Assembly: GCA_029262005.1 (NCBI GenBank) | Contig: JAJDAG010000012.1 | Span: forward strand, 3,161-67,160 | Reading direction: 5' to 3' | Source of the DNA: Candidatus Zhuqueibacterota bacterium | Lineage (GTDB): Bacteria; Zhuqueibacterota; Zhuqueibacteria; Oceanimicrobiales; Oceanimicrobiaceae | DNA length: 64,000 bases | Shown here: positions 1-35,843 of the stretch, one piece after another | Layout of the letters: every line of letters starts with the position of its first letter | Numbering within the stretch: the first letter of the stretch is position 1 | The notes under the pieces: model-generated | Databases searched by the model: none | What the model was told of the DNA's origin: nothing | The model's input: only the letters and a program-made list of their open reading frames with translations | Made by a program: the position numbers and the translations under genes

Positions 1-1
1 T

Positions 2-1492
2 GCCGGACTGGCATTATCATCTCTATATTTAACCAACTTAGCCTGCGGGCAGAAAAAATCCGGGAGCTCCAAACGTCCTAATATTTTAGTTTTGATGTCG
101 GATAACCAATATGCGTCGCATTTGGGTTGTTACGGCGACCCGGTGGTTAAGACGCCGGCCATCGATCGTATCGCCACACAGGGTGTACGATTCCAAAATG
201 CCTTTTGCGCTGCACCTTCCTGCACGCCTTCACGCGCGGGATTTCTCACCGGGCAGGACATCTGGAGACTGGAGGAAGGCGCGAACTTATGGGGAACCTT
301 GCCCAATAAATATACTACTTACACCGACCTTCTGGAACAAGCAGGCTATCTGGTCGGCTACCAGGGTAAAGGTTGGGGGCCCGGCAACTTCAATGATGGC
401 GGATACGAAAGAAATCCGGCCGGAAACAAATTTGATTCGTTTGGAAACTTCCTGCAGACGACCACAGAGACAAAGCCGTGGACTTATTGGTACTGTTCGC
501 AGGACCCGCATCGACCGTTCACTGTGGGTTCCGGTGTGGCCTCCGGCATGAGTTTGGATGATGTGGAAGTGCCGCCGTATCTGCCGGACACGAAAGAAGT
601 GCGCAGTGATATTTGTGACTACTATCACGAAATCCAAAATTTCGATAAGGATGTTTCTGCTGCGCTTGACTTGCTTGAACAAAGCGGTCAGTCTGAGAAT
701 ACCATCATCGTCATCACCAGTGATAACGGCTGGATGATGCCGCGTGGCCTTGCAAACCTTTATGATTTTGGCAGCAATGTCCCACTTATCGTTTCATGGA
801 AAGGGCATATCCCGGCGAACCGTGTTGTTACTGATTTTGCTAATCTCAATGACCTTGCCCCGACATTCCTCGAGCTTGCCGGAGTACAAATACCTGGGGA
901 AATGACTGCTAAAAGTCTAAAGCAGGTTCTTTTCTCAGACAGATCCGGAAGAGTCGAATCGGAACGAAATGTTGTTTTCACTGCCCGTGAAAGGCACGCT
1001 CTGGTTCGTAAAGATGGGCTCGGATATCCAGGCCGGGCCATCCGCACGGATGATTTTCTCTATATTCGAAATTATGAACCCGACCGCTGGCCGGCAGGTG
1101 ATCCACCGCTATTTGGCGACATCGATCTGCACATGCTGCAAGAGCCGACTCCTACAAAAGAATACATGATGCTTCACAAAGATGCTCCAAAAGTAAAGCC
1201 GCTATATGAACTCGCATTTCTTAAACGACCCGAAGAAGAGCTGTTTGATCTACGAAAAGATCCAAGCCAGATGAAAAATGTCGCTGAGGATGACGAATAT
1301 TCAGACGCAAAGAAAGAATTGTCAGCTAAACTTGATAAATATTTGAAAGACACCGGCGATCCCCGCGTGCTCGGAAAATCGGTTATCTGGGACAATACCG
1401 AGTATTACGAGAAAAATGATTATGTCGGCCAACCCCGAAAAGAAGCGCAGGAATTGTTTAATCTGAAAGCCGAATACCCTTACATGCAATAA
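2..1492 (+). CDS. S1-family sulfatase (formylglycine-dependent), 5'-partial: the reading frame is open back to the window edge and upstream residues look like a lipoprotein signal (LTNLACGQ)
   Basis: PNILVLMSDNQ...CAAPSCTPSRAGFLTGQ (C-x-P-x-R formylglycine motif); frame translated from nt 2 has no stop before the listed Met at 92. Confidence 0.85.
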   Translation, partial: AGLALSSLYLTNLACGQKKSGSSKRPNILVLMSDNQYASHLGCYGDPVVKTPAIDRIATQGVRFQNAFCAAPSCTPSRAGFLTGQDIWRLEEGANLWGTLPNKYTTYTDLLEQAGYLVGYQGKGWGPGNFNDGGYERNPAGNKFDSFGNFLQTTTETKPWTYWYCSQDPHRPFTVGSGVASGMSLDDVEVPPYLPDTKEVRSDICDYYHEIQNFDKDVSAALDLLEQSGQSENTIIVITSDNGWMMPRGLANLYDFGSNVPLIVSWKGHIPANRVVTDFANLNDLAPTFLELAGVQIPGEMTAKSLKQVLFSDRSGRVESERNVVFTARERHALVRKDGLGYPGRAIRTDDFLYIRNYEPDRWPAGDPPLFGDIDLHMLQEPTPTKEYMMLHKDAPKVKPLYELAFLKRPEEELFDLRKDPSQMKNVAEDDEYSDAKKELSAKLDKYLKDTGDPRVLGKSVIWDNTEYYEKNDYVGQPRKEAQELFNLKAEYPYMQ

Positions 1493-1498
1493 AATGTC

Positions 1499-2947
1499 AT
1501 GAAGAATATGAATCGAAGAAAATTCCTTAAATTATCCGGTTCCATTACTGCCGGCTTGACTGTTTCTGGTTTTGGATATTCGAAACACTTCCATGAAAAG
1601 AGCCTGTCGATTCAGCCTGCAGCCGCAAAACCCAATATTCTTTATATTATGACCGACCAGCAATTTGCCGGTGCCATGAGTTGCGCCGGCAATCAATTTG
1701 TCCATACTCCGGCAATGGACAGCATTGCTGAAAATGGCGTCCTGTTTGAAAAGGCCTACTGTTCAAATCCGCTATGCGTGCCTTCGCGGACAACGATGAT
1801 GACCGGCAGGATGCCGCATGAGACCGGCATTACTTTTAATGTTCATCCAAAGGAAGATTCCATACGTTTTCCGCTGATGGGTAAAATCATGTCTGAAGCA
1901 GGCTACGATTGCGGTTATGTCGGCAAGTGGCACCTTCCGGTTCCGACTTCGCAGGATGAGCGGCACGGCTTCAAAACTGTTCGGCATGCGCGCGGCAACA
2001 AGGTTGATTTCGATGCTGATATTCCAACAGCGTGTTCTGAATTTATCAACCAACAAAGGGAAACGCCGTTTCTACTGGTGGCTTCCTTTGTTAATCCGCA
2101 TGACATTTGCGAGTGGGCACGCGGTGACAAACTTAAAAATGGCGATATTCCCGAGCCTCCGCCGGCAAGCGAATGTCCGCCTCTACCTGAGAATTTTGAA
2201 ATTCCACCGCTTGAACCCGACATCTTGCGAAAAGTCATGCAAAAAAACCAGCGCACTTACCCAACAGTCAATTGGGAAACTGATCGTTGGCGGCAGTATT
2301 TATGGGCCTATTACCGGCTTATAGAAAAAGTTGATTCACATATTGGCGCTCTTTTGGAGACATTGCGAGAATCCGGACAACTTGAAAACACGGTCATTAT
2401 ATTCACCAGCGATCATGGTGACGGCTCCGGGGCACATCGCTGGAATCAGAAACAGGTGCTTTATGAAGAGTCGGTTCGTGTTCCTTTTATTATAAGCCAA
2501 AAGGGCGTGACCAAGGGGGGTAGAAAAGACGATAAACACTTGGTTTCCAACGGTCAGGACTTGCTTCCGACGTTGTGTGATTATGCAGACGTAGCTGTGC
2601 CTGCCGGTTTAAGCGGCTTTAGTGTTCGAGACTTGGCCGAAGATTCTCACCGAAGTGACTGGCGAGAGTTTCTGGTTGCTGAAACAGAGTTTGGCAATTT
2701 TGGAAAATCATTCGGCGTTACCGGCAGGATGGTGCGTACTGGAAGATTCAAATACGTTATTTATTCGGAAGGGGATTTGCGCGAGCAGTTATTCGATCTC
2801 GAAAAAGACCCGGGTGAACTTCTCAATTTAGTAGAAAGCGAAATGCATAAAAGAATACTCGAAGAACATCGTAATCGCCTCATTGCCTGGTGTCGGGAAA
2901 CGAATGATCCGTTTATTGCCAATCTGGAAAAAATCGAAATTTATTAA
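1499..2947 (+). CDS. S1-family sulfatase with Tat signal peptide
   Basis: MNRRKFLKL Tat motif; KPNILYIMTDQQ; CSNPLCVPSRTTMMTGR (CxPxR); GKWHL. Confidence 0.85.
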   Translation: MKNMNRRKFLKLSGSITAGLTVSGFGYSKHFHEKSLSIQPAAAKPNILYIMTDQQFAGAMSCAGNQFVHTPAMDSIAENGVLFEKAYCSNPLCVPSRTTMMTGRMPHETGITFNVHPKEDSIRFPLMGKIMSEAGYDCGYVGKWHLPVPTSQDERHGFKTVRHARGNKVDFDADIPTACSEFINQQRETPFLLVASFVNPHDICEWARGDKLKNGDIPEPPPASECPPLPENFEIPPLEPDILRKVMQKNQRTYPTVNWETDRWRQYLWAYYRLIEKVDSHIGALLETLRESGQLENTVIIFTSDHGDGSGAHRWNQKQVLYEESVRVPFIISQKGVTKGGRKDDKHLVSNGQDLLPTLCDYADVAVPAGLSGFSVRDLAEDSHRSDWREFLVAETEFGNFGKSFGVTGRMVRTGRFKYVIYSEGDLREQLFDLEKDPGELLNLVESEMHKRILEEHRNRLIAWCRETNDPFIANLEKIEIY

Positions 2948-3987: not shown

Positions 3988-5574
3988 TTGGATTTTAATG
4001 AATACACCCGCCGTGATTTTTTAAAAACTCTGGGACTAGGGGCGGCCACAATGGCGTTGCCGGGGTGCCTTGGCACGACTTCACCACAGAACAGGCCGAA
4101 TATCGTGCTCATCATGGCGGACGATATGGGCTTCTCCGACTTGGGGTGCTACGGCGGTGAAATCGAAACGCCTAACCTGGATCGTCTCGCAGACAACGGC
4201 CTTCGATTTACCCATTTTTATAACGCGGCAAAGTGCTGCCCCACTCGCGCCTCGTTGCTCACGGGCTTGTACCAGCACCAGGCGGGCGTCGGCGATATGG
4301 ATCATGACCTGGGATATCCGGAGTACCAGGGGTATCTGAATGACCGCTGTGTCACCATTGCCGAGGCTTTGAAGCAAGCCGGGTATGCAACCTATATGTC
4401 AGGCAAGTGGCACATCGGCAAAGAACCGCAAAACTGGCCGCGTAAACGAGGATTTGACCGCTACTTCGGTTTAATTAATGGCGCCAACAGTTTTTGGGAG
4501 ATTCTGCCAGGAAGAACGATGGCCCTGGACGACACGCCCTGGGAACCCGACCCCGATGATGATTCCTTTTACATGACCGATGCTTTTACTGACAACGCCA
4601 TTGATTTTCTCGACACGCACCCCACTAAAGACAAACCGTTTTTTCTTTACATGGCCCACACGGCGCCGCACTGGCCCTTGCATGCCTGGCCCGAAGACAT
4701 CGCCAAATACCGGAATAAATACAAGATGGGCTGGGATGCACTGCGCAAACAGCGCCACGAACGCATGATCGAAATGGGCATCGTGGATGAAAAATGGGCG
4801 CTATCCCCGCGCCACGAGAAGGTTCCGTCGTGGGATTCGGTGGCAGATAAAGATGTGCAGGACTTGCGAATGGCAGTCTATGCGGCCATGATAGACCGCA
4901 TGGACCAGGGCATTGGCAGAGTGCTGGACAAAATCAAGCAGATGGGCGCCGAAGAGAACACGCTGGTCATGTTTTTATCGGATAATGGCGCTTCGCAGAT
5001 TATGGTCAATCGTGGTGAACCCGGCATTCCGCCAGGTCCCAAGGGTGGTTTCTGGGGTTATGATTATCCCTGGGCCAACGCCGGCAGCACGCCGTTGCGT
5101 AAGTTCAAACGCTTCGCCCACGAGGGAGGTATTTCGACCCCGCTGATTTGTTCCTGGCCAAAGGGCATTAAGCCGAAAAACCGACTGACGCACCAGGTCG
5201 GCCATATCATCGATGTCATGCCGACGGTGCTCGACATTGCCGGTATTCAGCACCCGGAAGAAAGTCATGGAAAGTCATTGCTGCCTTTGGAAGGACAAAG
5301 CCTGCTGCCTGTTTTTAAAGGCAACCAAAGCAATGAACCCAGGACCCTGTTCTGGGAGCACATGGGCCATAAGGCAGTACGGGACGGAAAATGGAAACTG
5401 GTTTTAGATCGGCATAGGCAGGTTTGGGAATTGTACGACCTGGAGGCCGACCGCACCGAATTAAATGATTTGTCTGCCCAATTCCCTGAAAAGGTTGCGG
5501 TGCTCAAAACAAAGTGGGAAACGTGGGCTGAACGCTGCGGCGTATTGCCCTGGCCGCTCGAGAAAACGAAATAA
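3988..5574 (+). CDS. Arylsulfatase (S1 family) with Tat signal; TTG start
   Basis: RRDFLKTLGLGAA Tat motif; RPNIVLIMADDMGFSDLGCYGG; AAKCCPTRASLLTG (CxPxR); SGKWHIG; AGGAG RBS 8 nt upstream of TTG. Confidence 0.85.
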   Translation: MDFNEYTRRDFLKTLGLGAATMALPGCLGTTSPQNRPNIVLIMADDMGFSDLGCYGGEIETPNLDRLADNGLRFTHFYNAAKCCPTRASLLTGLYQHQAGVGDMDHDLGYPEYQGYLNDRCVTIAEALKQAGYATYMSGKWHIGKEPQNWPRKRGFDRYFGLINGANSFWEILPGRTMALDDTPWEPDPDDDSFYMTDAFTDNAIDFLDTHPTKDKPFFLYMAHTAPHWPLHAWPEDIAKYRNKYKMGWDALRKQRHERMIEMGIVDEKWALSPRHEKVPSWDSVADKDVQDLRMAVYAAMIDRMDQGIGRVLDKIKQMGAEENTLVMFLSDNGASQIMVNRGEPGIPPGPKGGFWGYDYPWANAGSTPLRKFKRFAHEGGISTPLICSWPKGIKPKNRLTHQVGHIIDVMPTVLDIAGIQHPEESHGKSLLPLEGQSLLPVFKGNQSNEPRTLFWEHMGHKAVRDGKWKLVLDRHRQVWELYDLEADRTELNDLSAQFPEKVAVLKTKWETWAERCGVLPWPLEKTK

Positions 5575-5601: not shown

Positions 5602-7167
5602 ATGGATAGTGCAAATCGCACACGGCGTGAGTTTTTAAAAACCATGGGTTACGGCAGCGCAGCGCTTACTCTTGCCGGAATTGGGTTGCCTGGGCTCGTC
5701 CACGCGGGAAATGATCGCCCGAATATTATTTTTATCATGTCCGATGACCACGACAGCAGCGCCATCAGCAGTTACGGTAGCAAGATTAACAAGACACCAA
5801 ACCTGGACCGGCTGGCCGACGAAGGCATGCGATTTGACAATTGTTTCTGCACCAATTCAATCTGTGCGCCCAGCCGTGCGGCAATTCTGACCGGAAAGTT
5901 CAGCCATCTAAACGGTGTCTACGACAATGTTGCCCGCTTTGACGGTTCACAGCAAACCTTCCCCAAACTCCTGCAAAAGGCCGGCTATGAAACCGCTATG
6001 ATCGGCAAGTGGCATCTCAAAAGCGCGCCCACAGGCTTCGATTACTGGAATGTGCTGCCTGGACAGGGTTCCTACTACAATCCTGAATTCATCGAGATGG
6101 GTGAGCTGAAAAGTTATGAAGGCTATGTTACGGATATTACCACCGACTTTTCTTTAAATTGGCTGAAAGGGCGCAAAAAAGAGCAGCCTTTCTGTTTGAT
6201 GTACCAGCACAAAGCGCCGCACCGCTGGTGGCAGCCCGATGCCAAACATCTCACCATGTACGATGACGTTGAGATTCCTGAGCCGCCAACCCTGTTTGAT
6301 GATTATAAAACCCGTAGCGCAGCAGCGCATGAGCAGGAAATGACCATCGCCGAGCATTTGAATGAACGCGACCTCAAACTCATTCCCCAGGCAGGATTGA
6401 ATGATGAACAACGCAAGGCCTGGGATGCGGCTTACGGTCCTAAAAACGAAGCCTTTCGCAAAGCCAATCTCGAAGGGGACGACCTGGTTCGCTGGAAATA
6501 CCAACGCTACATTAAAGACTATTTGCGCTGTGTCGCCTCGCTGGATGACAACATCGGCCGCCTGCTCGATTATCTCGACGCCTCCGGCTTAGCGGAAAAC
6601 ACGATTGTGGTTTACACCTCCGACCAGGGATTTTACCTTGGCGATCACGGCTGGTTTGACAAGCGCTTCATGTACGAACAATCCCTGCGCATGCCGCTGC
6701 TGGTGCGCTATCCGAAAAAAATTAAACCCGGCTCGGTGAACAAAGACCTGGTGATGAACGTTGATTTCGCCCCGACATTTCTGGATATGGCTGGTGTTGC
6801 CAGGCCCGAAGACATACAGGGCGAGAGCATGAAATCGATTCTGCAGGGAGAAACACCGCAGGATTGGCGCGCCTCGGTCTACTATCACTATTACGAATTT
6901 CCGAGCTGGCACATGGTGAAGCGGCATTACGGCGTGCGCACACAACGCTACAAGCTCATGCATTTCTACTATGACGTCGACGCCTGGGAGCTTTATGATT
7001 TGCAGAAGGATCCGCAGGAGCTGAACAATATTTATGACAATCCGGCTTATGCGGATGTTATTGCGGAGCTCAAAACCGAGTTAAAACGGCTGCGAAAACA
7101 ATACAACGATACAAACCTGAAAAGCGAAGAGATGATCAAAGACTATATGGAGAAGCGGAAGAAGTAG
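5602..7167 (+). CDS. S1-family sulfatase with Tat signal
   Basis: [14 protein letters not shown]; [13 protein letters not shown]; [15 protein letters not shown]; IGKWHL. Confidence 0.85.
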
Positions 7168-7186: not shown

Positions 7187-7221
7187 AACCCTCGCAGAGT
7201 TTGAACCCCTGGAAGGGTTAC
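7187..7221. repeat. GC-rich palindromic intergenic repeat (family 1, inverted orientation relative to the other copies), 20 nt after the sulfatase stop
   Basis: AACCCTCGCAGAGTTTGAACCCCTGGAAGGGTTAC; its reverse complement aligns with the 28541 copy (AACCC-TTCCAGGGGTTCAA...GAGGGTTG). Confidence 0.5.
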
Positions 7222-20690: not shown

Positions 20691-20726
20691 AACCCTTTCA
20701 GGGATTACAAGCCCCGGAAGGATTAC
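20691..20726. repeat. GC-rich palindromic intergenic repeat (family 1), 13 nt after the GH88 stop
   Basis: AACCCTTTCAGGGATTACAAGCCCCGGAAGGATTAC; arms CCTTTCAGGG/CCCCGGAAGG can pair (9/10 including a G-U). Confidence 0.5.
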
Positions 20727-23661: not shown

Positions 23662-23774
23662 CGGGTTGTCACTCAGGAGGCGTCTTTGTAATAAAGTAAG
23701 CTGCTGTGAATCAATAGGATTCCTCCTGATTGACAAGGATGTTGTGAATTGTTCAGGTTAGAAAAAAGAATGAG
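23662..23774. promoter_or_regulatory. Conserved ~110-nt intergenic element, copy 1 (15-bp inverted repeat TTGTCACTCAGGAGG / CCTCCTGATTGACAA with 56-nt arm-to-arm offset, then GGATGTTGTGAATTGTTCAGGTTAGA...AATGAG), 34 nt upstream of the TonB-dependent receptor start
   Basis: near-identical architecture and flanks recur at 33940-34052; spacer core CTGCTGT conserved. Confidence 0.5.
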
Positions 23775-28540: not shown

Positions 28541-28576
28541 AACCCCTTCCAGGGTTTCAAGCCCTGGAGGGGTTGA
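28541..28576. repeat. GC-rich palindromic intergenic repeat (family 1), 27 nt after the beta-helix gene stop
   Basis: AACCCCTTCCAGGGTTTCAAGCCCTGGAGGGGTTGA; 11-bp stem with one bulged T, loop TTTCAA. Confidence 0.5.
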
Positions 28577-28834: not shown

Positions 28835-30139
28835 ATGCCTTCAGCATTTCACATAATGGCCAAACCTATTGGCCCGGTTTGCAATATTGACTGCACCTAC
28901 TGTTTTTACCTGGAAAAGGAGAAACTGTATCCGCAAAAATCGGACTTCCGTATGTCTGATGCAGTGCTGGAGTCATTCATCCGTCAGAAAATCGCCAATC
29001 ATTCGGTTCCAAAAGTTACATTTGCCTGGCAGGGTGGCGAGCCGACCCTTTTGGGCGTTGATTTCTTTCGCAAGGTCGTCGCGCTGCAAAAGAAATATGC
29101 CGACGGCAAAGAAATTGAAAACGGGTTTCAAACCAATGGCGTTTTGCTCGATGATGAGTGGTGCACGTTTTTCAAGGAGAACAATTTTCTCGTCGGATTG
29201 TCTTTGGATGGTCCGGAAGAGAGCCACAACCGTTTTCGGATCAATAAAGGTGGCAAAGGCACATTTCAGCAAGTCATGCGTGGATTGGAGTTTCTTAAAA
29301 AGAATGGTGTGGAGTTTAATACTCTGACAGTGTTGCAACGGGATAACTCCTGTCATCCGCTGGAGATTTATCGTTTCCTGAAAGAAGTGGGCAGCGGTTT
29401 CATGCAATTTATTCCAATTGTGGAGCGAGTGGCTCAAGATTCTCCCGGGGACGGGCTTTCCCTGGTCGCACCAAATTTTACGGCCGCATCCCAGGTGACG
29501 GATTGGTCGGTGGAGCCGGTACAATATGGCAAATTTCTCTGCGCTATTTTCGATGAATGGGTTCGCAAGGATGTCGGCGAACAATTCGTGCAGATGTTTG
29601 ATGTTGCACTGTCGGCCTGGCTGGGCTTAGAGCCCCCGCTTTGTGTTTTTCGCAGGACCTGCGGTGACGCCCTTGCCATTGAACATAATGGCGACGTTTA
29701 TTCATGTGACCATTTTGTCTATCCGGAAAATAAACTGGGTAATATTATCGACAGCCCGCTCGAAGCACTGATTTCATCGGACAAGCAAGTCAGGTTTGGC
29801 CGGGACAAATTGGATCAGCTTCCGAAGTATTGCGGGGACTGTGACGTTAGATTTGTTTGTAACGGTGAATGCCCCAAACATCGTTTTCTAAAAACACCGG
29901 ATGGAGAAGAAGGACTGAACTATTTGTGCGCCGGATACAAACAGTTTTTTAAACACATCGATCCATTTATGAAATTTATGGCAAATGAATTACGAAACCA
30001 GCGCCCACCGGCCAATGTGATGGCCTGGGCAGAAGAAAAGGACAAAGGTTTTCCTTCTCACAACATAGGGCGCAATGAGCCCTGTCCATGCGGCAGCGGC
30101 ATAAAGATCAAGAACTGTTGTGCTTCCAATAAAAAATAG
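28835..30139 (+). CDS. Anaerobic sulfatase-maturating enzyme (radical SAM/SPASM) with extra C-terminal SEC-C-type Cys motif
   Basis: HIMAKPIGPVCNIDCTYCFY (CxxxCxxC); SPASM Cys cluster CGDCDVRFVCNGECPKH; C-terminus EPCPCGSGIKIKNCC. Confidence 0.85.
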   Translation: MPSAFHIMAKPIGPVCNIDCTYCFYLEKEKLYPQKSDFRMSDAVLESFIRQKIANHSVPKVTFAWQGGEPTLLGVDFFRKVVALQKKYADGKEIENGFQTNGVLLDDEWCTFFKENNFLVGLSLDGPEESHNRFRINKGGKGTFQQVMRGLEFLKKNGVEFNTLTVLQRDNSCHPLEIYRFLKEVGSGFMQFIPIVERVAQDSPGDGLSLVAPNFTAASQVTDWSVEPVQYGKFLCAIFDEWVRKDVGEQFVQMFDVALSAWLGLEPPLCVFRRTCGDALAIEHNGDVYSCDHFVYPENKLGNIIDSPLEALISSDKQVRFGRDKLDQLPKYCGDCDVRFVCNGECPKHRFLKTPDGEEGLNYLCAGYKQFFKHIDPFMKFMANELRNQRPPANVMAWAEEKDKGFPSHNIGRNEPCPCGSGIKIKNCCASNKK

Positions 30140-30171: not shown

Positions 30172-31161
30172 ATGAACTTTAATCACGGAAAGATCCACAG
30201 ATGTTTATTTCTCCTGATGGCCTTTCTTCTTATCGCCGGTTGCAATAGCGAAAGAAAAGTGCGGGTGATCAAGCTCGCCCATGTTCTGGATACGCAGCAT
30301 CCGGTGCACAAAGCCATGGTTTACATGGCCGACCGGGTGGTTGAAAAATCAAATGGGACCATGCGCGTTGACATTTATCCCGGCGGTCAACTCGGAGGGG
30401 AGCGCGACCTGATAGAGTTGCTGCAAATCGGTAGCCTGGCAATGACCAAAGTGTCCGCCGCTCCACTGGAAGCCTTTGTTCCGGAAATGAAATTATTTGG
30501 TATTCCCTATGTGTTTCGTGATGATGAACAGCGCTGGAAAGTACTGAACGGGGACATCGGGAAAAAACTTCTGCTTGCGGGCGAACCGTTTTTCCTGCGT
30601 GGTATGTGCTATTACGACGCCGGCAGCCGCAGTTTCTACACCAAAGAAATGCCCGTAAACACGCCGGTCGATTTAGAGGGTTTAAAAATCAGGGTGATGA
30701 AGAGTATAACAGCCGTGAAAATGGTGCAGGCTTTGGGGGGCGCCGCCACACCTATCCCATGGGGAGAGCTTTATACCTCGCTGCAACAAGGCGTTGTTGA
30801 TGGCGCTGAGAACAATCTCCCCACTTTCTACCTCTCGCGCCACTATGAAGTGTGCAAATATTTCAGTCTCGACGAACACACCGCCATTCCCGACATTTTG
30901 CTCATGAGCACAGTTGTCTGGAAAAGTCTCTCCAAACAGCAACAAATATGGTTGCAGGAGGCTGTGGACGAGTCGGTCGGGTACCAAAACAAATTGTGGC
31001 AGGAAGCCAGCGAAGAAGCGTTAAACGCGGTGCAAAAAGCCGGTGTTGAGGTCATCTATCCCGATAAGAGTCCGTTTCACGAATCGGTGAAAGAAATGCA
31101 TGACTCTTTTCGTGGCACGTCGATCCACCGCCTGCTCAATGAAATCAAAGATATCCAATAA
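30172..31161 (+). CDS. dctP: TRAP transporter solute-binding protein, DctP family (lipoprotein)
   Basis: IAGCNS lipobox; DctP-family blocks (VIKLAHVLDTQHPVHKA...YPGGQLGGERDLIELLQIGSLAMT). Confidence 0.8.
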   Translation: MNFNHGKIHRCLFLLMAFLLIAGCNSERKVRVIKLAHVLDTQHPVHKAMVYMADRVVEKSNGTMRVDIYPGGQLGGERDLIELLQIGSLAMTKVSAAPLEAFVPEMKLFGIPYVFRDDEQRWKVLNGDIGKKLLLAGEPFFLRGMCYYDAGSRSFYTKEMPVNTPVDLEGLKIRVMKSITAVKMVQALGGAATPIPWGELYTSLQQGVVDGAENNLPTFYLSRHYEVCKYFSLDEHTAIPDILLMSTVVWKSLSKQQQIWLQEAVDESVGYQNKLWQEASEEALNAVQKAGVEVIYPDKSPFHESVKEMHDSFRGTSIHRLLNEIKDIQ

Positions 31162-31171
31162 GCTCGTGGGA

Positions 31172-31690
31172 ATGAAAATGCAAAAATTAACCTATACAAT
31201 AACCCGAACACTGGAGATCATGCTGATCGTCCTCATGTCAGCCATCGTCATCGATGTCACCTGGCAGATTTTCACTCGTTTCATTTTACGCGATCCCAGC
31301 TCGTTTACCGAAGAGCTGGCGGGTTTCTTGCTGGTCTGGATTGGCCTGTTGGGCGCCAGCTATGCTCTGCACACACGGGCGCACCTGGGAATTGATATTT
31401 TAGTCGCCAAACTCGACGGCTTGAAAAAGCAGTTTGCAGAGGTTCTGGTCTATTCTGTGGTGCTGCTCTTTGCTCTGTTCATTCTTTTAATCGGCGGCTT
31501 GAAACTGGTAAAGCTCACTTATGTTCTCAACCAAATTTCACCGGCGATAGGCATTCCGATGTGGTATATCTACCTGGCCCTGCCACTCACAGGCATGCTG
31601 ATGATGTTTTATTCGCTGGTATTTATCGTTGATGCTTTGAAAAAATCATCTCCCTCCGATGGAAGGCCACACGTGAGTCCGGTTAATTAA
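31172..31690 (+). CDS. dctQ: TRAP transporter small permease, DctQ family
   Basis: 4-TM small protein between dctP and dctM; start placed at the first ATG after the dctP stop (31159-31161). Confidence 0.7.
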   Translation: MKMQKLTYTITRTLEIMLIVLMSAIVIDVTWQIFTRFILRDPSSFTEELAGFLLVWIGLLGASYALHTRAHLGIDILVAKLDGLKKQFAEVLVYSVVLLFALFILLIGGLKLVKLTYVLNQISPAIGIPMWYIYLALPLTGMLMMFYSLVFIVDALKKSSPSDGRPHVSPVN

Positions 31691-31708
31691 TCAAAAGGAA
31701 GGAAATGA

Positions 31709-33004
31709 GTGGAAACGTCTATTTTTATACTGATCATTAGTTTTGTTGTACTGTTAGCGCTCAATGTTCCCATCGCCATCAGTATCGGTGTGTCAACGGT
31801 ATTGACCATGCTGTTTACCATTGCCCCGGGCCCGGCCATTACGACGGTTGCGCAGCAGATGACCACGGGCATCAACAGTTTTACTTTGCTGGCCATCCCG
31901 TTTTTCATCCTCTCCGGATTGCTTATGGGCCGAGGAGGCATTGCCCGTCGTTTAATCGATTTTGCCAAAGTCGTTGTCGGAATGTTCCCCGGTGGCCTGG
32001 CTTACGTCAATGTCTTGGCCTGTATGTTTTTTGGCGCAATATCAGGTTCGGCAGTTGCCGCGACCTCCGCGATCGGCGGATTTATGATCCCTTCGATGAA
32101 TAAAGAAGGCTACGATGACGAGTTTAGCACGGCGGTTACCGTCACGGCTTCCACCACGGGATTGTTGATACCGCCGAGCAATATTCTCATTGTCTATTCG
32201 CTGGCAAGCGGCGGCGTTTCCATTGCCGCATTGTTCATTGCCGGTTACTTGCCCGGCTTGCTGGTTGGCATGGGTTTGATCGTTGTCGCAGCGATTACTT
32301 CCATTGTGAGAGGCTACCCGGTGGGTGCGAAAGCCGGTTTGCGCGAGTCGATGCTCAAGTTTTTGGCTGCCATTCCCAGCCTTTTGCTCATCATCATTGT
32401 TATTGGTGGCATCATTGCGGGCATTTTTACGGCCACGGAAGCCAGCGCGGTTGCGGTGCTCTATTCATTGTTCCTGGCTGTCGGCGTTTATCGTGAAGTC
32501 AAAATAAAGGAACTACCGGCGATTCTACTTAAGACAGTCGAAACCACGGCCATTGTGATGCTGCTCATCGGTACTTCAAAAGCGATGTCCTGGATTTTGT
32601 CTTATGAAAATATTCCACAAAATATCAGCACTGCGCTGGTTGGCTTGACCGACAATACCATTGTCATCCTGTTGCTCATCAATCTCATTTTGCTTGTTGT
32701 CGGCACTTTCATGGACATGACGCCCGCCGTCCTGATTTTCACGCCAATCCTGTTGCCGGTTGTGATGAAACTGGGTATGACGCCACTGCATTTTGGTATT
32801 ATGATGGTACTTAATCTTTCTATCGGCTTGTGTACGCCGCCTGTGGGCAGCGTACTATTTGTTGGCTGCGGAATCGGCAAAACGTCCATCGCAAAACTGA
32901 TCAGGCCTCTGGTTCCGCTTTATATCGCCATGCTGATTGCCCTCATGCTGGTGACTTACATTCCGGCAATCAGTCTTTGGCTGCCGGAACTTTTTGGTTA
33001 TTAA
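31709..33004 (+). CDS. dctM: TRAP transporter large permease, DctM family
   Basis: polytopic 431 aa; typical DctM N-terminus METSIFILIISFVVLLALNVPIAISIG and GxxSGS motifs. Confidence 0.85.
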   Translation: METSIFILIISFVVLLALNVPIAISIGVSTVLTMLFTIAPGPAITTVAQQMTTGINSFTLLAIPFFILSGLLMGRGGIARRLIDFAKVVVGMFPGGLAYVNVLACMFFGAISGSAVAATSAIGGFMIPSMNKEGYDDEFSTAVTVTASTTGLLIPPSNILIVYSLASGGVSIAALFIAGYLPGLLVGMGLIVVAAITSIVRGYPVGAKAGLRESMLKFLAAIPSLLLIIIVIGGIIAGIFTATEASAVAVLYSLFLAVGVYREVKIKELPAILLKTVETTAIVMLLIGTSKAMSWILSYENIPQNISTALVGLTDNTIVILLLINLILLVVGTFMDMTPAVLIFTPILLPVVMKLGMTPLHFGIMMVLNLSIGLCTPPVGSVLFVGCGIGKTSIAKLIRPLVPLYIAMLIALMLVTYIPAISLWLPELFGY

Positions 33005-33009
33005 TTAAC

Positions 33010-33077: not shown

Positions 33078-33884
33078 ATGAGAATAGTCATTCATAAAGA
33101 CAAGTACAGCCTGAGTAAGTGGGTTGCCTGTTACATTGCGCATAAAATAAATAGTCATAATGCTACTTCGCAAAAGCCATTTGTCCTTGGCCTTCCCACC
33201 GGCTCATCTCCATTGGAAACATACAAAGAGCTCATTCGCCTTCATAAAGATGGAAAAGTATCATTTAAAAATGTGATAACATTCAATATGGATGAATACG
33301 TTGGCCTGCCTGAAGATCATGATCAGAGTTACCACTATTTTATGTGGCATAATTTCTTTAATCATATCGATATTCCCTCCGAAAATGTAAATATTTTGGA
33401 TGGTATGGCGCCGGACCTTGAGAAAGAGTGCAAACAGTATGAAAAGAAAATTAGTCAGACCGGCGGCATTGATCTTTTTCTCGGAGGTATTGGCCCGGAC
33501 GGGCATATTGCCTTTAACGAACCTGGTTCCTCCCTGTCATCACGAACCAGAGTGAAAACCCTGACCTATGATACGAGAATGGCTAACTCTCGATTTTTTA
33601 AAGATATTGAAGAGGTGCCGAGTACCGCACTTACTGTTGGGGTAGGTACGGTTTTGGATACCCGCGAAATAGTAATCATTATCAGCGGATACAGTAAAGC
33701 CCGGGCACTGCAAAAGGTGGTTGAAGAAGGTGTTAACCACATGTGGACAGTTTCAGTAATGCAATTACATCAGAATTGCATCATAGCCTGTGATGATGAA
33801 TCGACAATGGAATTAAAAGTGGGTACAGTTAATTATTTCAAGAATATTGAAATGGAAAATATTAATAAATTATTAGACTTATAA
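33078..33884 (+). CDS. nagB: Glucosamine-6-phosphate deaminase
   Basis: near-collinear with E. coli NagB: [91 protein letters not shown]. Confidence 0.9.
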
Positions 33885-33939: not shown

Positions 33940-34052
33940 CGGCTTGTCACTCAGGAGGAGTCCTGTTAGCTTGGCAAACTGCTGTTAGTTAACAAGATTC
34001 CTCCTGAATGACAAGGGTGCTGTGAATTATTCAGGTTAGATGATAAATGAGG
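33940..34052. promoter_or_regulatory. Conserved ~110-nt intergenic element, copy 2 (TTGTCACTCAGGAGG / CCTCCTGAATGACAA, identical 56-nt offset, then GGGTGCTGTGAATTATTCAGGTTAGA...AATGAG), 93 nt upstream of eda
   Basis: direct comparison with 23662-23774; same mismatch position in the stem in both copies. Confidence 0.5.
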
Positions 34053-34144: not shown

Positions 34145-34807
34145 ATGAATCGTTCAGAAATCGTGCAAAGAATCATTCGGGAGGGTGTTGTTGCGGTCAT
34201 CCGCATGACGGATTCCGACAATTTTATACGGGTTGCCGAAGCCATTCATAAGGGTGGCGTATCGTCTCTTGAAATAACCATGACGACGCCGAATGCGCTC
34301 AAAGTTATCGAAGAATGTAACAATGTACTCGGGCAGAAAATGCTGATAGGGGTTGGCTCCGTTTTGGACGCAGAGACCGCAAGGCTGGCGATTTTGGCTG
34401 GCGCGCGGTATGTCGTGAGCCCGATTACGAAAGCAGAAATCATCCAGACGGCGCACAGGTATGATGTACCCGTAATGACGGGCGCATTCACACCGACAGA
34501 AATTCAGGTAGCCTCCGAATTCGGTGCAGATATTGTCAAAGTTTTTCCGGCAGATATTGTTGGAATGGCTTTTTTCAAGGCCGTGAAGGCTCCCATGCCA
34601 CATGTCAATCTCATGCCGACCGGAGGGGTTTCTCTCACCAACGCCGGTGACTGGTTGAAAGCTGGTGCCTGTGCTGTTGGTGTCGGTAGTGCACTACTTG
34701 ACAAGAAAGCAATTGCCGAAGGAAGATATGACATGTTAACAGAAAATGCAAAAATTATAGTGGGCAGTATCCTGGCGGGACGCAAAGCAACACAAGAGGG
34801 CAATTAA
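34145..34807 (+). CDS. eda: 2-dehydro-3-deoxy-phosphogluconate (KDPG) aldolase
   Basis: KDPG/KHG aldolase blocks: VVAVIRMTDSDN, SLEITMTTPNALKVIEE, IVKVFPA. Confidence 0.85.
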   Translation: MNRSEIVQRIIREGVVAVIRMTDSDNFIRVAEAIHKGGVSSLEITMTTPNALKVIEECNNVLGQKMLIGVGSVLDAETARLAILAGARYVVSPITKAEIIQTAHRYDVPVMTGAFTPTEIQVASEFGADIVKVFPADIVGMAFFKAVKAPMPHVNLMPTGGVSLTNAGDWLKAGACAVGVGSALLDKKAIAEGRYDMLTENAKIIVGSILAGRKATQEGN

Positions 34808-34808
34808 A

Positions 34809-35843
34809 ATGGCACATAAAGTTGTGACATTCGGAGAAATCATGTTGCGGTTATCGACACCGGCTTTTAGTCGTTTTGTTCAGGCACAGAGTTTTGACAT
34901 GACTTTCGGCGGCGGAGAGGCTAACGTTGCGGTTGCATTGGCAAATTATGGTTTGGACAGTTATTTCCTATGCAAATTACCGCAGCATGAAATTGGCCAG
35001 GCAGCGTTGAATCATTTACGCCGGTTTGGAGTTCAGTGCCGGTACGTAATTCGCGGCGGGGACCGCGTCGGTATATATTTCCTGGAAACCGGTGCCAGCC
35101 AAAGAGCTTCCAAAGTTATATACGATCGTGCCCATTCCGCTCTGAGTCAGATGCAAAAAGACGAGGTGAATTGGCAGGAAATATTTGATGGTGCTGCATG
35201 GTTTCACTGGACCGGCATTACCCCGGCGCTTGGTGCCAAAGCAAGAGAATGTGTCAAATGCGCATGCGAAGCTGCTAAGGAGGCAAACGTAACAATTAGT
35301 TGCGATTTGAATTTTCGAAAGAAGTTGTGGTCTGAACGCGAGGCTCAGGCTTTCATGCAACCGTTGATGGAATATGTGGATGTCTGCATTGCCAATGAAG
35401 AAGATGCCGAAAAGAGTTTGGGGTTGAAGGCAGGTGAATCCGACGTTGAATCCGCAGAACTTGAAGAACAATCCTATTTCGAAATGGCCAGGAGGCTGAA
35501 AAATAAATATGATTTTCAGGCTGTTGCCATTACGCTGCGCGAAAGTTTTTCAGCATCGAGGAATGGCTGGAGTGCTATTCTTTTGGATGACAGGGATTGC
35601 CCTGTACCCAGCAGATCCCGGCGGTATGACATCCAGCTCATTGACCGGGTCGGTGGAGGCGATGCTTTTGCAAGCGGTTTGATTTATGGATTGCTTGCCA
35701 ATGAGAATTCCAAGGAAGCTCTTGAATTTGCAGTTGCTGCATCGTGCCTAAAACAAACCATTCCCGGAGATTTCAATCTTGTCACTGTCGAGGAGGTCGA
35801 AAAACTGGCAACCGGCAGCGGGTCGGGAAGGGTAGAAAGGTAA
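34809..35843 (+). CDS. kdgK: 2-dehydro-3-deoxygluconokinase (PfkB/ribokinase family)
   Basis: VVTFGEIMLRL...GGGEANVAVALANYG (PfkB N-terminal motif); DRVGGGDAFASGLIYGL (C-terminal anion-hole motif); start 2 nt after eda stop. Confidence 0.8.
   Translation: MAHKVVTFGEIMLRLSTPAFSRFVQAQSFDMTFGGGEANVAVALANYGLDSYFLCKLPQHEIGQAALNHLRRFGVQCRYVIRGGDRVGIYFLETGASQRASKVIYDRAHSALSQMQKDEVNWQEIFDGAAWFHWTGITPALGAKARECVKCACEAAKEANVTISCDLNFRKKLWSEREAQAFMQPLMEYVDVCIANEEDAEKSLGLKAGESDVESAELEEQSYFEMARRLKNKYDFQAVAITLRESFSASRNGWSAILLDDRDCPVPSRSRRYDIQLIDRVGGGDAFASGLIYGLLANENSKEALEFAVAASCLKQTIPGDFNLVTVEEVEKLATGSGSGRVER

What the first reader, a model, noticed from the sequence alone, without database searches (positions are those of the whole stretch)
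1..35843. 36-kb glycosaminoglycan (chondroitin-sulfate/hyaluronan-type) utilisation locus built without SusC/SusD: T9SS-secreted PL8 lyase plus TRAP and MFS import
The full catabolic route can be read off the sequence. Two PL8 lyases carry the catalytic H-x3-AY-x2-AY motif, and one is exported by T9SS. Five CxPxR sulfatases sit with an anSME maturase. Two periplasmic GH88 hydrolases feed KduI, KduD, KdgK and Eda. Hexosamine handling is covered by a FucP-like MFS permease, a ROK kinase and NagB. This is the logic of Bacteroides chondroitin-sulfate PULs, but here it is coupled to a DctPQM TRAP transporter and a lone TonB receptor. There is no SusD, no HTCS regulator and no NagA. Shine-Dalgarno sites are used throughout. 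That argues for an undescribed GAG-degradation architecture in a non-Bacteroidia T9SS lineage, possibly host- or animal-associated or a marine anaerobe.
Basis: partly seen in the sequence, partly recalled or inferred. Interest (0 to 1): 0.6.

Follow-up and report, generated by a model that had tools for sequence, protein, structure and literature searches.

The report
Glycosaminoglycan locus with unusual transporter partner
An uncultured bacterium, whose nearest named relatives are in candidate division KSB1, carries a near-complete gene set for breaking down chondroitin/hyaluronan-like sugars, and its outer-membrane importer is paired with a T9SS-exported beta-helix protein instead of the usual SusD, a pairing that recurs in several related phyla.

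Summary
Window 1-35,843 is one same-strand block of 25 genes:
- two chondroitinase-ABC-type PL8 lyases, one with a T9SS type-A C-terminal domain (CTD)
- five Cys-type S1 sulfatases plus anSME
- two GH88
- KduI-KduD-KdgK-Eda
- an MFS/ROK/NagB hexosamine branch
- a DctPQM TRAP system
- a TonB-dependent transporter (TBDT)

No SusD, HTCS or NagA lies in the window.

Corrections:
- The block is cut by the window's left edge.
- The sulfatases are not purely chondroitin-type. Best solved relatives are a 2-O-uronate sulfatase, a GlcNAc-6-O-sulfatase, an S1_4-like arylsulfatase and S1_8-like and ARSA/GALNS-like enzymes.
- TRAP next to kduI/kduD is already seen in marine Gammaproteobacteria, and T9SS-secreted PL8 in Flavobacteriia.

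The main correction is that the TBDT is not "lone". The 544-aa T9SS protein just downstream models as a confident beta-helix of an unnamed family. In 9 of 9 other loci with upstream DNA, its homologue sits directly behind a homologous TBDT, amid quite different CAZymes. I read this as a SusC/SusD-like import pair of non-Bacteroidia FCB (Fibrobacterota-Chlorobiota-Bacteroidota superphylum) bacteria. Verdict: new variant of a known kind, moderately interesting.

The parts
2..1492 (+). Sulfatase 1, 5' end cut by the window edge. Has a lipobox-like LTNLAC and the CTPSR motif. Nearest solved relative is S1_8A (weak match).
1499..2947 (+). Sulfatase 2, with a TAT signal and CVPSR. Nearest solved relative is the 2-O glycosaminoglycan sulfatase 5G2T (S1_9 type).
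   Evidence: 206 bits
2981..3970 (+). Laminin_G_3 (concanavalin-like) protein with a T9SS type-A CTD. Probably a surface binding protein.
3988..5574 (+). Sulfatase 3, with a TAT signal and CCPTR. Arylsulfatase-like (S1_4 type). Best matches are 7ALL and Pseudomonas arylsulfatase 1HDH.
5602..7167 (+). Sulfatase 4, with a TAT signal and CAPSR. Close to N-acetylglucosamine-6-sulfatase 5G2V (S1_11 type).
   Evidence: 608 bits
7246..10122 (+). Chondroitinase-ABC-type PL8 lyase. Lacks the N-terminal Lyase_N domain and carries a T9SS type-A CTD, so it is the surface or secreted lyase. Catalytic residues H291, Y299, R352 and E468 are conserved.
10227..11489 (+). MFS permease of the GluP/FucP/NagP type. 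Presumed N-acetylhexosamine importer.
   Evidence: all equivalog scores below cutoff
11532..12377 (+). ROK-family sugar kinase with no DNA-binding domain.
12391..15546 (+). Full-length chondroitinase-ABC-type PL8 lyase (Lyase_N + catalytic + super-sandwich + C-terminal domains). Has a Sec signal and no CTD, so it is periplasmic. H379, H489, Y497, R550 and E666 are conserved.
15551..16834 (+). Two-domain protein of unknown function: an unassigned N-terminal half plus DUF1961 (YesU-like jelly roll).
16852..18210 (+). Sulfatase 5, with a TAT signal and CTPSR. Resembles steryl-sulfatase, ARSA and GALNS. Specificity unresolved.
18283..19467 (+). GH88 unsaturated glucuronyl hydrolase a, with a Sec signal.
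19470..20678 (+). GH88 unsaturated glucuronyl hydrolase b, lipoprotein-like signal, Bacteroidota-type clade.
20766..21596 (+). KduI, 5-dehydro-4-deoxy-D-glucuronate isomerase.
   Evidence: 415 bits against 250
21623..22783 (+). DUF4861 / BT3233-family polysaccharide utilisation protein with a signal peptide. Function unknown.
22806..23567 (+). KduD, 2-dehydro-3-deoxy-D-gluconate 5-dehydrogenase.
   Evidence: 390 bits against 339
23662..23762 (+). Copy 1 of a ~100-nt hairpin element, 46 nt upstream of the TBDT start.
23808..26720 (+). TonB-dependent transporter: CarboxypepD_reg N-terminal domain + plug + barrel. TonB-Xanth-Caul subfamily, not SusC/RagA.
26880..28514 (+). 544-aa T9SS cargo: right-handed beta-helix (residues ~30-440), a conserved GDLNWFP motif, a disordered linker and a type-A CTD. 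Conserved tandem partner of the TBDT.
28835..30139 (+). Anaerobic sulfatase-maturating enzyme (radical SAM/SPASM), cytoplasmic, with a C-terminal SEC-C motif.
30172..31161 (+). TRAP substrate-binding protein DctP with a lipobox. Belongs to a clade linked to kduI/kduD elsewhere.
31172..31690 (+). TRAP small permease DctQ.
31709..33004 (+). TRAP large permease DctM.
33078..33884 (+). NagB, glucosamine-6-phosphate deaminase.
   Evidence: 401 bits against 237
33940..34040 (+). Copy 2 of the ~100-nt hairpin element, 105 nt upstream of the Eda start.
34145..34807 (+). Eda, KDPG/KHG aldolase.
34809..35843 (+). PfkB-family 2-dehydro-3-deoxygluconokinase (KdgK).

Best explanation
The block is a polysaccharide-utilisation locus for sulfated, uronic-acid-containing glycosaminoglycan-type polymers. 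Chondroitin/dermatan sulfate and hyaluronan are the best guess. The host is an uncultured, Shine-Dalgarno-using FCB-superphylum (Fibrobacterota-Chlorobiota-Bacteroidota) bacterium whose nearest named relatives are KSB1.

Proposed route; gene functions are shown at family level, and localisation and order of steps are inferred:
1. T9SS exports a truncated ABC-type PL8 lyase, a LamG protein and a beta-helix protein to the cell surface.
2. The surface lyase cuts the polymer.
3. The beta-helix protein works with the TonB-dependent transporter encoded just upstream, as a functional counterpart of SusD/SusC. It captures oligosaccharides and hands them to the barrel.
4. In the periplasm, a full-length PL8 exolyase reduces them further. 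Five formylglycine sulfatases are involved, four exported folded through TAT after cytoplasmic maturation by anSME. [quoted passage not shown]
5. The DctPQM TRAP system imports the uronate product for KduI, KduD, KdgK and Eda.
6. The MFS permease imports the amino sugar for the ROK kinase and NagB. The deacetylase is encoded elsewhere.
For: Family assignments:
- Pfam and NCBIfam hits cover every gene. KduI, KduD, NagB, Eda, anSME and DctP/M are above curated cutoffs.
- Both PL8s align to chondroitinase ABC 2Q1F with His, Tyr, Arg and Glu conserved.
- All five sulfatases carry CxPxR, and four carry RR-x-F-[LI]-K signals (TAT_signal Pfam hit).
- Sulfatase 2 matches the 2-O GAG sulfatase and sulfatase 4 the GlcNAc-6-sulfatase.
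- Both GH88 were confirmed against annotated genes.

TRAP role:
- DctP is 54-59% identical to Pseudoalteromonas and Alteromonas binding proteins that lie beside kduI, kduD, a sugar kinase and, in Pseudoalteromonas, GH88 genes.

Transporter pair:
- The family has more than 5,000 hits with the CTD included. Without the CTD there are 840 cluster representatives at E<=1e-3 and 529 at E<=1e-10.
- Where named, members come from KSB1, Ignavibacteriae/Melioribacteraceae, Calditrichaeota and Balneolaceae.
- In 9 of 9 further loci with upstream DNA, the homologue directly follows a homologous TBDT on the same strand (505-813 bits to the window TBDT).
- The neighbouring CAZymes differ from locus to locus: GH5/GH3, GH94, GH10, GH97/GH1, GH27, GH29, sulfatases and lyases.
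- Pairwise identities of the transporters and of their partners correlate (r = 0.85, Mantel p about 2e-4).
- The AF2 model has pLDDT 91 and is a beta-helix.
- Many longer family members add CBM_35, CBM_6 or LamG modules.
- The most conserved stretch (residues 401-440, GDLNWFP) lies next to the linker that precedes the CTD, which would place it near the membrane anchor.

No SusD domain occurs in the window or in any of these loci.
Against: - No experiment or complex prediction links the beta-helix protein physically to the transporter.
- Correlated divergence can arise from shared descent alone.
- The nearest solved folds are PL6 lyases (Foldseek E 3e-9, TM 0.46), so an enzymatic role is not excluded.
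- Only ten loci were examined.
- The substrate is not pinned down. A GlcNAc-6-O-sulfatase, an S1_4-like sulfatase (whose known sugar specificities are 3S/6S-Gal) and NagB do not fit chondroitin, which contains GalNAc. No heparinase or keratanase is present.
- NagA and any regulator are missing from the window, and the left border is cut.
- T9SS machinery genes were not seen, because only 64 kb was available.
- Taxonomy rests on one marker (LeuRS).
Confidence: 0.68

Rival explanations
1. The 544-aa beta-helix protein is a surface depolymerase (a PL6-like lyase or another beta-helix CAZyme) that produces oligosaccharides at the mouth of the transporter. On this reading it is not a binding or lid partner.
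For: The best structural neighbours are PL6 alginate lyases and pectin lyase. Some members hit Pfam Beta_helix. Several residues are invariant or nearly so within the helix: Y63, R177, H231, D322.
Against: There is no Pfam or NCBIfam lyase hit. No Lys or Glu in the helix is invariant or conserved at 90% or more, as would be expected for the PL6 Ca2+/Lys/Arg site as I know it. Family members also sit in loci for neutral glycans (GH94/MFS, GH10, GH97/GH1, GH5/GH3), where a lyase has no substrate. The helix body is poorly conserved (0.35-0.5) compared with the C-terminal motif (0.81).
Confidence: 0.2
2. The locus is not aimed at animal chondroitin sulfate or hyaluronan. Its target would be another sulfated uronic-acid polymer (marine invertebrate, algal or microbial), or a mixture of GAG fragments that includes GlcNAc-6-sulfated ones.
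For: Sulfatase 4 is closest to GlcNAc-6-sulfatases (608 bits). Sulfatase 3 is S1_4-like. NagB and a GlcNAc-type kinase and permease are present, but no GalNAc-specific genes. The DctP relatives come from marine polysaccharide degraders.
Against: Both lyases are closest to chondroitinase ABC and keep its catalytic residues. A 2-O-uronate GAG sulfatase relative is present. The locus contains no lyase or hydrolase family for heparan, keratan, ulvan or alginate.
Confidence: 0.3
3. The TBDT/beta-helix adjacency is only inherited gene order. On this reading the beta-helix protein is a generic T9SS surface adhesin with no functional tie to the transporter.
For: Only synteny and correlated divergence support the link. 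Both can reflect common descent.
Against: The pair stays together while everything around it changes, across loci whose named proteins come from KSB1, Calditrichaeota and Melioribacteraceae (Ignavibacteriae). Gaps from the TBDT stop codon to the partner's annotated start are 65-160 bp in six of the seven distinct loci with annotated starts (the window plus six; L167 carries the same partner protein as L166), and 476 bp in the seventh.
Confidence: 0.12
4. It is an ordinary SusC/SusD PUL whose SusD (and regulator) lies just upstream of the window.
For: The window begins inside the first sulfatase, and the contig is 11 kb longer than the window.
Against: The only TBDT in the locus fails the SusC/RagA model (62 bits against 368) and passes TonB-Xanth-Caul. 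Its downstream neighbour, where susD would sit, is the beta-helix protein. No related locus contains SusD.
Confidence: 0.05

Closest known systems
Bacteroides thetaiotaomicron chondroitin sulfate/hyaluronan PUL (BT3324-BT3350 plus BT1596, BT4410; own knowledge)
   Same: The enzymatic logic is the same: a surface lyase, periplasmic PL8 ABC-type lyases (2Q1F is the best hit of both lyases), exo-sulfatases including a 2-O-uronate sulfatase relative, periplasmic GH88, then KduI/KduD/KdgK/Eda. Sulfatases are matured by anSME.
   Different: There is no SusC/SusD and no HTCS regulator. The surface lyase is a T9SS-exported PL8, not a lipoprotein PL29. Sulfatases use TAT signals. Catabolic genes and inner-membrane transporters (TRAP, MFS) lie inside the locus. 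A GlcNAc-6-sulfatase relative is included.
SusC/SusD outer-membrane import pair of Bacteroidota
   Same: It is a tandem of a large TBDT with a CarboxypepD_reg N-terminal domain followed by a surface-exposed partner gene. The pair is embedded in CAZyme loci of changing specificity.
   Different: The barrel fails the SusC/RagA model. The partner is an all-beta right-handed helix with a T9SS CTD, whereas SusD is, to my knowledge, an alpha-helical TPR-type lipoprotein. No physical complex has been shown.
Proteobacterial TBDT-based carbohydrate loci (Xanthomonas/Caulobacter CUT loci; Alteromonas/Pseudoalteromonas PULs)
   Same: The TBDT is of the TonB-Xanth-Caul subfamily. A TRAP transporter 54-59% identical in its binding protein lies beside kduI/kduD/kinase, and in Pseudoalteromonas also beside GH88.
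   Different: In the two gammaproteobacterial regions viewed, no T9SS-CTD protein is annotated; to my knowledge these bacteria lack T9SS, and no partner gene is known behind their TBDTs. The Pseudoalteromonas and Alteromonas loci carry LacI or DeoR regulators, which the window lacks.
T9SS-secreted chondroitin AC lyase CslA of Tenacibaculum maritimum and Flavobacterium columnare (PMC5561996)
   Same: It is a PL8 lyase delivered by T9SS through a C-terminal domain.
   Different: Those are PL8_3 AC-type virulence factors in Flavobacteriia. Here the lyase is an ABC-type PL8 without its N-terminal domain, in a KSB1-like organism and inside a catabolic locus.
Rhodothermus marinus xylan locus, Rmar_1070 (TonB receptor) followed by Rmar_1071 (hypothetical protein with Por CTD) (PMC6987092)
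   Same: The gene order is the same: a TBDT followed by a hypothetical T9SS-CTD protein within a CAZyme cluster. The paper lists the genes but does not interpret the arrangement.
   Different: Homology of Rmar_1071 to the beta-helix family could not be tested here. That locus also contains a true SusC/SusD pair.
PL6 beta-helix lyases (alginate lyase BcAlyPL6 7DMK; chondroitinase B)
   Same: They share the right-handed parallel beta-helix fold (Foldseek E 3e-9).
   Different: Identity is 16% and TM only 0.46. No Chondroitinas_B or other lyase profile hit was found, and no invariant Lys or Glu.

Membership tests
PL8 polysaccharide lyases (chondroitinase ABC type) | An alpha/alpha catalytic domain plus the Lyase_8 super-sandwich and C-terminal beta-sandwich | tested here: met
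   Lyase_catalyt, Lyase_8 and Lyase_8_C are found in both proteins. Lyase_N is found only in 12391-15546.
PL8 polysaccharide lyases (chondroitinase ABC type) | Catalytic His/Tyr/Arg/Glu tetrad (H454, Y461, R514, E628 of 2Q1F; residue roles from own knowledge) | tested here: met
   H291/Y299/R352/E468 and H489/Y497/R550/E666 align to those positions.
PL8 polysaccharide lyases (chondroitinase ABC type) | Lyase activity on CS, DS or HA | not testable with these tools
   This needs an enzyme assay.
Bacteroidota PUL (SusC/SusD-defined) | A SusD/RagB-family gene adjacent to the TBDT | tested here: not met
   No SusD Pfam family was found in any ORF of the window. The downstream gene is a beta-helix protein.
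Bacteroidota PUL (SusC/SusD-defined) | The TBDT belongs to the SusC/RagA subfamily (TIGR04056) | tested here: not met
   62 bits against a 368 cutoff, from the N-terminal region only. TIGR01782 TonB-Xanth-Caul scores 392 against 310.
S1 formylglycine sulfatases with anSME maturation | Sulfatase domain with the C/S-x-P-x-R motif | tested here: met
   CTPSR, CVPSR, CCPTR, CAPSR and CTPSR. PF00884 is present in all five.
S1 formylglycine sulfatases with anSME maturation | A radical-SAM/SPASM maturase of the anSME equivalog | tested here: met
   TIGR03942 scores 521 bits against 349; NF010308 scores 539 against 484.
S1 formylglycine sulfatases with anSME maturation | Assignment to GAG-specific SulfAtlas subfamilies | tested here: inconclusive
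   No SulfAtlas tool was available. By nearest PDB chain, two of five are GAG-type (5G2T 2-O; 5G2V GlcNAc-6-O). One is S1_4-like, one is weakly S1_8-like and one is ARSA/GALNS-like.
T9SS cargo | A type-A C-terminal sorting domain (TIGR04183 / PF18962) | tested here: met
   43.5, 37.4 and 36.8 bits against a cutoff of 23, for three proteins.
T9SS cargo | T9SS machinery present in the genome | not testable with these tools
   Only 64 kb was available, and it contains no T9SS core gene. Homologues named 'T9SS type A sorting domain-containing protein [candidate division KSB1 bacterium]' exist.
DHU (unsaturated uronate) pathway KduI-KduD-KdgK-Eda | All four enzymes present | tested here: met
   KduI 415 against 250; KduD 390 against 339; Eda 179 against 156. 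The PfkB kinase scores 554 bits to the kinase part of a KDG-kinase fusion model.
TRAP transporter | DctP, DctQ and DctM genes in tandem | tested here: met
TRAP transporter | Ligand is an unsaturated uronate or DHU | not testable with these tools
   This is inferred from the conserved linkage of 54-59% identical binding proteins to kduI/kduD.
PL6 lyases (for the 544-aa beta-helix protein) | Sequence membership and a conserved Ca2+/Lys/Arg catalytic site | tested here: not met
   No Chondroitinas_B or other lyase profile hit was found. The alignment of 74 members has no Lys or Glu in the helix that is invariant or conserved at 90% or more. Only the fold is similar.
Candidate division KSB1 (Zhuqueibacterota) | Phylogenetic placement with marker genes | tested here: inconclusive
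   Only one marker was used. LeuRS is 67% identical to KSB1-named proteins and 72-79% to unnamed MAG proteins. No rRNA or tRNA lies in the window.

The most novel reading that the evidence does not exclude
The tandem of a TonB-dependent transporter (CarboxypepD_reg N-terminal domain, non-SusC barrel) and a T9SS-anchored beta-helix protein may be a previously unrecognised, widespread outer-membrane glycan-import unit. It would be the SusC/SusD equivalent of non-Bacteroidia FCB lineages such as KSB1, Ignavibacteria, Calditrichota and the Balneola group. The variable helix would bind the glycan, and the conserved GDLNWFP region near the membrane anchor would dock on the barrel. If so, the pair could serve as a marker for predicting polysaccharide-utilisation loci in these mostly uncultured phyla.
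Probability: 0.4. Interest if true: 0.8.

Novelty: new variant of a known kind. Interest (0 to 1): 0.58.

Why it matters
PUL prediction today depends on finding SusC/SusD pairs, so it cannot see most glycan-degrading loci outside the class Bacteroidia. This window gives a worked example of a complete GAG-type locus in a barely sampled lineage. Every protein looked up is the only member of its 90%-identity cluster among 15 billion sequences.

The window also exposes a recurring transporter/partner pair that could play SusC/SusD's role in KSB1, Ignavibacteria, Calditrichota and relatives. If confirmed, the pair would:
- give a handle for annotating carbon turnover by these sediment and hot-spring phyla
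- show that T9SS anchoring can replace lipoprotein anchoring for the surface component of a glycan importer

The catabolic part by itself is ordinary biochemistry in a new host.

Tried and rejected
It returned 80 loci at 44% identity or less, from Acidobacteriota, Verrucomicrobiota and Pedobacter. None shares PL8, TRAP or more than one sulfatase or GH88 homologue with this locus, so it gave no close relative and no syntenic locus.
- Exact look-ups of the window's PL8, its LeuRS and the 54%-identical PL8 relative found no contig. KduD led only to a 3-kb Logan contig from SRR15505514. The missing 11 kb of the source contig could not be retrieved.
- The metagenome scan with the beta-helix alignment locked onto the T9SS CTD motif (YPNPFNPxT). 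Almost all 80 loci matched the CTD only, and three were real family members.
- Single-sequence AlphaFold of the DUF1961 protein was useless (pLDDT 30).
- Rfam found nothing in the window at gathering thresholds, and nothing for hairpin copy 1 at E<=1 (copy 2 was not searched at that threshold).
- The sigma-70 promoter and terminator scans were at or near shuffle expectation (22 against 27.3; 28 against 21.7). Operon borders could not be set.
- Six literature searches aimed at either a KSB1/FCB GAG locus or the TBDT plus T9SS-partner pair found no description of either. This covers open-access text only.
- I considered whether the LamG or DUF1961 proteins might be hidden heparinase-like jelly-roll lyases that would explain the GlcNAc-6-sulfatase. 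No sequence evidence supports this.

Full report
**What is in the sequence**

Positions 1-35,843 hold 25 genes, all on the + strand, with short spacers. Pfam and NCBIfam give the following, in order:

| Coordinates | Gene |
|---|---|
| 2-1492 | sulfatase 1 |
| 1499-2947 | sulfatase 2 |
| 2981-3970 | Laminin_G_3 protein with a T9SS type-A CTD |
| 3988-5574 | sulfatase 3 |
| 5602-7167 | sulfatase 4 |
| 7246-10122 | PL8 lyase with a T9SS CTD |
| 10227-11489 | MFS permease |
| 11532-12377 | ROK kinase |
| 12391-15546 | second PL8 lyase |
| 15551-16834 | DUF1961 protein |
| 16852-18210 | sulfatase 5 |
| 18283-19467, 19470-20678 | two GH88 |
| 20766-21596 | KduI |
| 21623-22783 | DUF4861 (BT3233 family) |
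| 22806-23567 | KduD |
| 23808-26720 | TonB-dependent transporter (TBDT) |
| 26880-28514 | 544-aa T9SS-CTD protein with no other domain hit |
| 28835-30139 | anSME |
| 30172-33004 | DctP, DctQ, DctM |
| 33078-33884 | NagB |
| 34145-34807 | Eda |
| 34809-35843 | PfkB-type KDG kinase |

KduI, KduD, NagB, Eda, anSME and the TRAP subunits exceed curated NCBIfam cutoffs. Downstream lie housekeeping genes: cytochrome c biogenesis, Tol-Pal, LeuRS and others. The right border at about 35.8 kb is therefore real. The left border is not, because the first sulfatase reads through the window start in frame 2. The source contig is 75,034 bp.

- *PL8 lyases.* Both are most similar to B. thetaiotaomicron chondroitinase ABC 2Q1F (E 3e-115 and 4e-78), then to Proteus chondroitinase ABC I.
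  - Chain positions H454, Y461, R514 and E628 are the catalytic tetrad as I recall it from the literature on that enzyme. They align with H489/Y497/R550/E666 in the long lyase and H291/Y299/R352/E468 in the T9SS lyase.
  - The quoted motif is exact in the T9SS lyase (HHKIAYGSAY). It has V for A in the other (HHRGVYSAAY).
  - The two lyases are 38% identical. The T9SS one lacks the roughly 260-residue N-terminal domain and has Asp where the long one keeps the equivalent of His345. The long one has a Sec signal and no CTD, so it is probably periplasmic.
- *Sulfatases.* All five carry C-x-P-x-R, and four carry clear twin-arginine signals (TAT_signal hit).
- *GH88.* Both are 38-52% identical to genes annotated GH88 or ugl and 37% identical to each other.
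- *Shine-Dalgarno.* Cores precede 14 of 24 starts, against 8.5% of random 17-mers.
- *Absences.* No SusD, HTCS or NagA domain occurs in any scanned ORF.

**Sulfatase specificities**

No SulfAtlas tool was available, so I used nearest solved structures.

| Sulfatase | Nearest solved structures |
|---|---|
| 2 | 2-O glycosaminoglycan sulfatase (5G2T/3B5Q, 206 bits) |
| 4 | N-acetylglucosamine-6-sulfatase 5G2V (608 bits), then mucin-desulfating enzymes |
| 3 | 7ALL (411 bits) and Pseudomonas arylsulfatase 1HDH (342 bits), i.e. the arylsulfatase S1_4 type |
| 1 | weakly S1_8-like (129 bits) |
| 5 | steryl-sulfatase, ARSA and GALNS (260-294 bits) |

The characterised sugar specificities of S1_4 in B. 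thetaiotaomicron are 3S-Gal and 6S-Gal.

The set is still not a clean chondroitin set. GlcNAc-6-O-sulfate occurs in heparan and keratan sulfate and in mucins, not in chondroitin. NagB with a GlcNAc-type kinase and permease also points to GlcNAc. No heparinase or keratanase family is present. The exact substrate range is therefore unresolved.

**Who carries it**

- There is no rRNA or tRNA in the window.
- The window's proteins are each the sole member of their 90%-identity cluster among about 15 billion sequences.
- LeuRS finds 72-79% identical proteins labelled only "[bacterium]". The first named ones, at 67%, are from candidate division KSB1. KSB1 was recently renamed Zhuqueibacterota and placed in the FCB superphylum (Fibrobacterota-Chlorobiota-Bacteroidota; PMC11683472).
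- Homologues of the 544-aa protein are also named from KSB1.

"Non-Bacteroidia T9SS lineage" is therefore supported, but phylum assignment rests on one marker. Habitat cannot be judged.

**The transporter is not lone**

The TBDT has a SusC-like CarboxypepD_reg N-terminal domain. Even so, it fails the SusC/RagA model (62 bits against a 368 cutoff) and passes TonB-Xanth-Caul (392 against 310).

The gene 160 bp downstream encodes a protein with no Pfam hit outside its CTD. It has thousands of homologues. Without the CTD there are 840 cluster representatives at E<=1e-3, 529 at E<=1e-10 and 126 at E<=1e-30 among 1.84 billion. Where named, members come from KSB1, Ignavibacteriae/Melioribacteraceae, Calditrichaeota and Balneolaceae.

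An AlphaFold model built on 74 homologues is confident (pLDDT 91). It shows a right-handed beta-helix (residues about 30-440), a disordered linker (443-464) and the CTD. The only significant fold matches outside the CTD region are PL6 alginate lyases (E 3e-9, TM 0.46).

I looked up six homologues, which gave seven distinct loci, and found three more family members in metagenome loci. One of those three (L084) starts at its contig end, so its upstream side is missing. In all nine loci where upstream DNA exists, a TBDT with the same domain layout lies immediately upstream on the same strand, scoring 505-813 bits to the window's TBDT.

The surroundings differ each time:
- GH5 + GH3 + sulfatases
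- sulfatases + alginate-lyase-like + chondroitinase B
- LacI + GH94 + MFS
- GH5
- GH27 + GH88
- sulfatases + GH29
- GH116 + MFS + GH10-CTD + an esterase
- GH97 + GH1

None of these loci has SusD. Further observations:
- Pairwise identities of transporters and partners correlate (r = 0.85, Mantel p about 2e-4).
- The best-conserved part of the partner is residues 401-440 (…PLGDLNWFPDKK…), with mean conservation 0.62-0.81. The helix body scores 0.35-0.5.
- Longer members insert CBM_35, CBM_6 or LamG modules.
- A paper on Rhodothermus marinus lists the same order in its xylan locus (Rmar_1070 TonB receptor, then Rmar_1071 hypothetical protein with Por CTD) without comment (PMC6987092).
- My searches found no description of this pair.

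**Interpretation of the pair**

The constant adjacency in changing CAZyme contexts is what defines SusC/SusD in Bacteroidota. The same holds for a variable body with added CBMs, and for a conserved segment that would sit next to the membrane anchor once the CTD is removed.

I therefore favour a glycan-capturing partner of the transporter, anchored through T9SS instead of a lipid. This is inference, because no physical link has been shown.

An enzymatic role (PL6-like) remains possible. It is disfavoured for three reasons. There is no lyase profile hit. No Lys or Glu in the helix is invariant or conserved at 90% or more. And the pair occurs in loci for neutral glycans.

**The inner-membrane side**

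DctP is 54-59% identical to TRAP binding proteins of Pseudoalteromonas and Alteromonas sp. 76-1. There they lie beside kduI, kduD and a sugar kinase, and in Pseudoalteromonas also beside GH88 genes. It also shows that the coupling is already seen in marine Gammaproteobacteria.

T9SS-delivered chondroitin lyase is likewise known in Tenacibaculum (PMC5561996). What is new here is the combination and the host, not the parts.

**Model**

Family-level functions are shown. Localisation and order of steps are inferred.
1. A surface PL8 lyase cuts the polymer.
2. The beta-helix partner and the TBDT import oligosaccharides.
3. In the periplasm, the PL8 exolyase, the TAT-exported sulfatases (matured in the cytoplasm by anSME) and the GH88 hydrolases reduce them to monomers.
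4. TRAP imports the uronate product for KduI, KduD, KdgK and Eda.
5. The MFS permease imports the amino sugar for the ROK kinase and NagB.

NagA and a regulator lie elsewhere or in the unseen 11 kb.

**Verdict**

The locus is a new variant of known polysaccharide-utilisation systems.

Noticed in passing
window 23662-23762 and 33940-34040: There are two copies of a ~100-nt element. It has 15-nt inverted arms (TTGTCACTCAGGAGG ... CCTCCTGA[T/A]TGACAA) about 41 nt apart, then a conserved tail ending in TTCAGGTTAGA. One copy lies 46 nt upstream of the TBDT start and the other 105 nt upstream of Eda. Copy 2 folds at -54 kcal/mol (z = -6.6). Copy 1 was searched in Rfam at E<=1 without a hit, and the element is absent from the 171 fetched loci. 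It could be a shared cis-regulatory element or a small mobile repeat.
   Followed up: partly
window 7207-7219, 20691-20724, 28542-28574: REP-like imperfect hairpins (AACCC[C]TTCCAGGG - N7 - CCCTGGA[A]GGGGTT) lie just after the stop codons of sulfatase 4, GH88b and the beta-helix protein. The arm pattern gives six matches, against 1.15 expected by chance.
   Followed up: partly
window 1499, 3988, 5602, 16852 (N-termini): Four of the five sulfatases carry twin-arginine signals (RRKFLK, RRDFLK, RREFLK, RRKFIK). This would fit cytoplasmic formylglycine formation by anSME before export of the folded protein.
   Followed up: partly
window 28835-30139: The anSME ends in a SEC-C zinc-binding motif (CPCGSG...C), picked up by Pfam PF02810. 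This seems an unusual appendage for this enzyme.
   Followed up: no
homologues of window 7246-10122 (P0016, P0020, P0023): Chondroitinase-ABC-like proteins 29-34% identical to the T9SS lyase are annotated in cnidarian genomes (Montipora, Oculina, Nematostella). These may reflect gene transfer or contamination.
   Followed up: no
window 21623-22783; loci L001-L080: Among 80 loci from Acidobacteriota, Verrucomicrobiota, Bacteroidota and Planctomycetota, KduI and KduD homologues each occur in 21, and lie directly adjacent to DUF4861 (BT3233 family) 21 times in all. This suggests an unrecognised role in unsaturated-uronate metabolism.
   Followed up: partly
window 15551-16834: This is a two-domain periplasmic or lipoprotein-like protein. 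Its roughly 200-residue N-terminal half has no family hit. Its C-terminal half is DUF1961, matching B. subtilis YesU (1OQ1, E 3e-43), which to my knowledge is encoded in the rhamnogalacturonan gene cluster. Function is unknown, and single-sequence AlphaFold failed.
   Followed up: partly
window 40655-42013 and 42123-43337: Two tandem paralogues combine an N-terminal GYF_2 domain with a ParA/MinD-type P-loop ATPase. They lie upstream of a Tol-Pal cluster.
   Followed up: no
window 30172-31161: DctP is up to 59-60% identical to Pseudoalteromonas proteins. That is much closer than most locus proteins are to anything outside the lineage, and hints at lateral exchange of the TRAP module with marine Gammaproteobacteria.
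   Followed up: partly
whole window: Each of the nine window proteins found by exact look-up is a singleton at 90% identity among about 15 billion proteins. Only KduD and the beta-helix protein are also listed from Logan; for KduD the run is SRR15505514. The organism is very sparsely sampled.
   Followed up: partly
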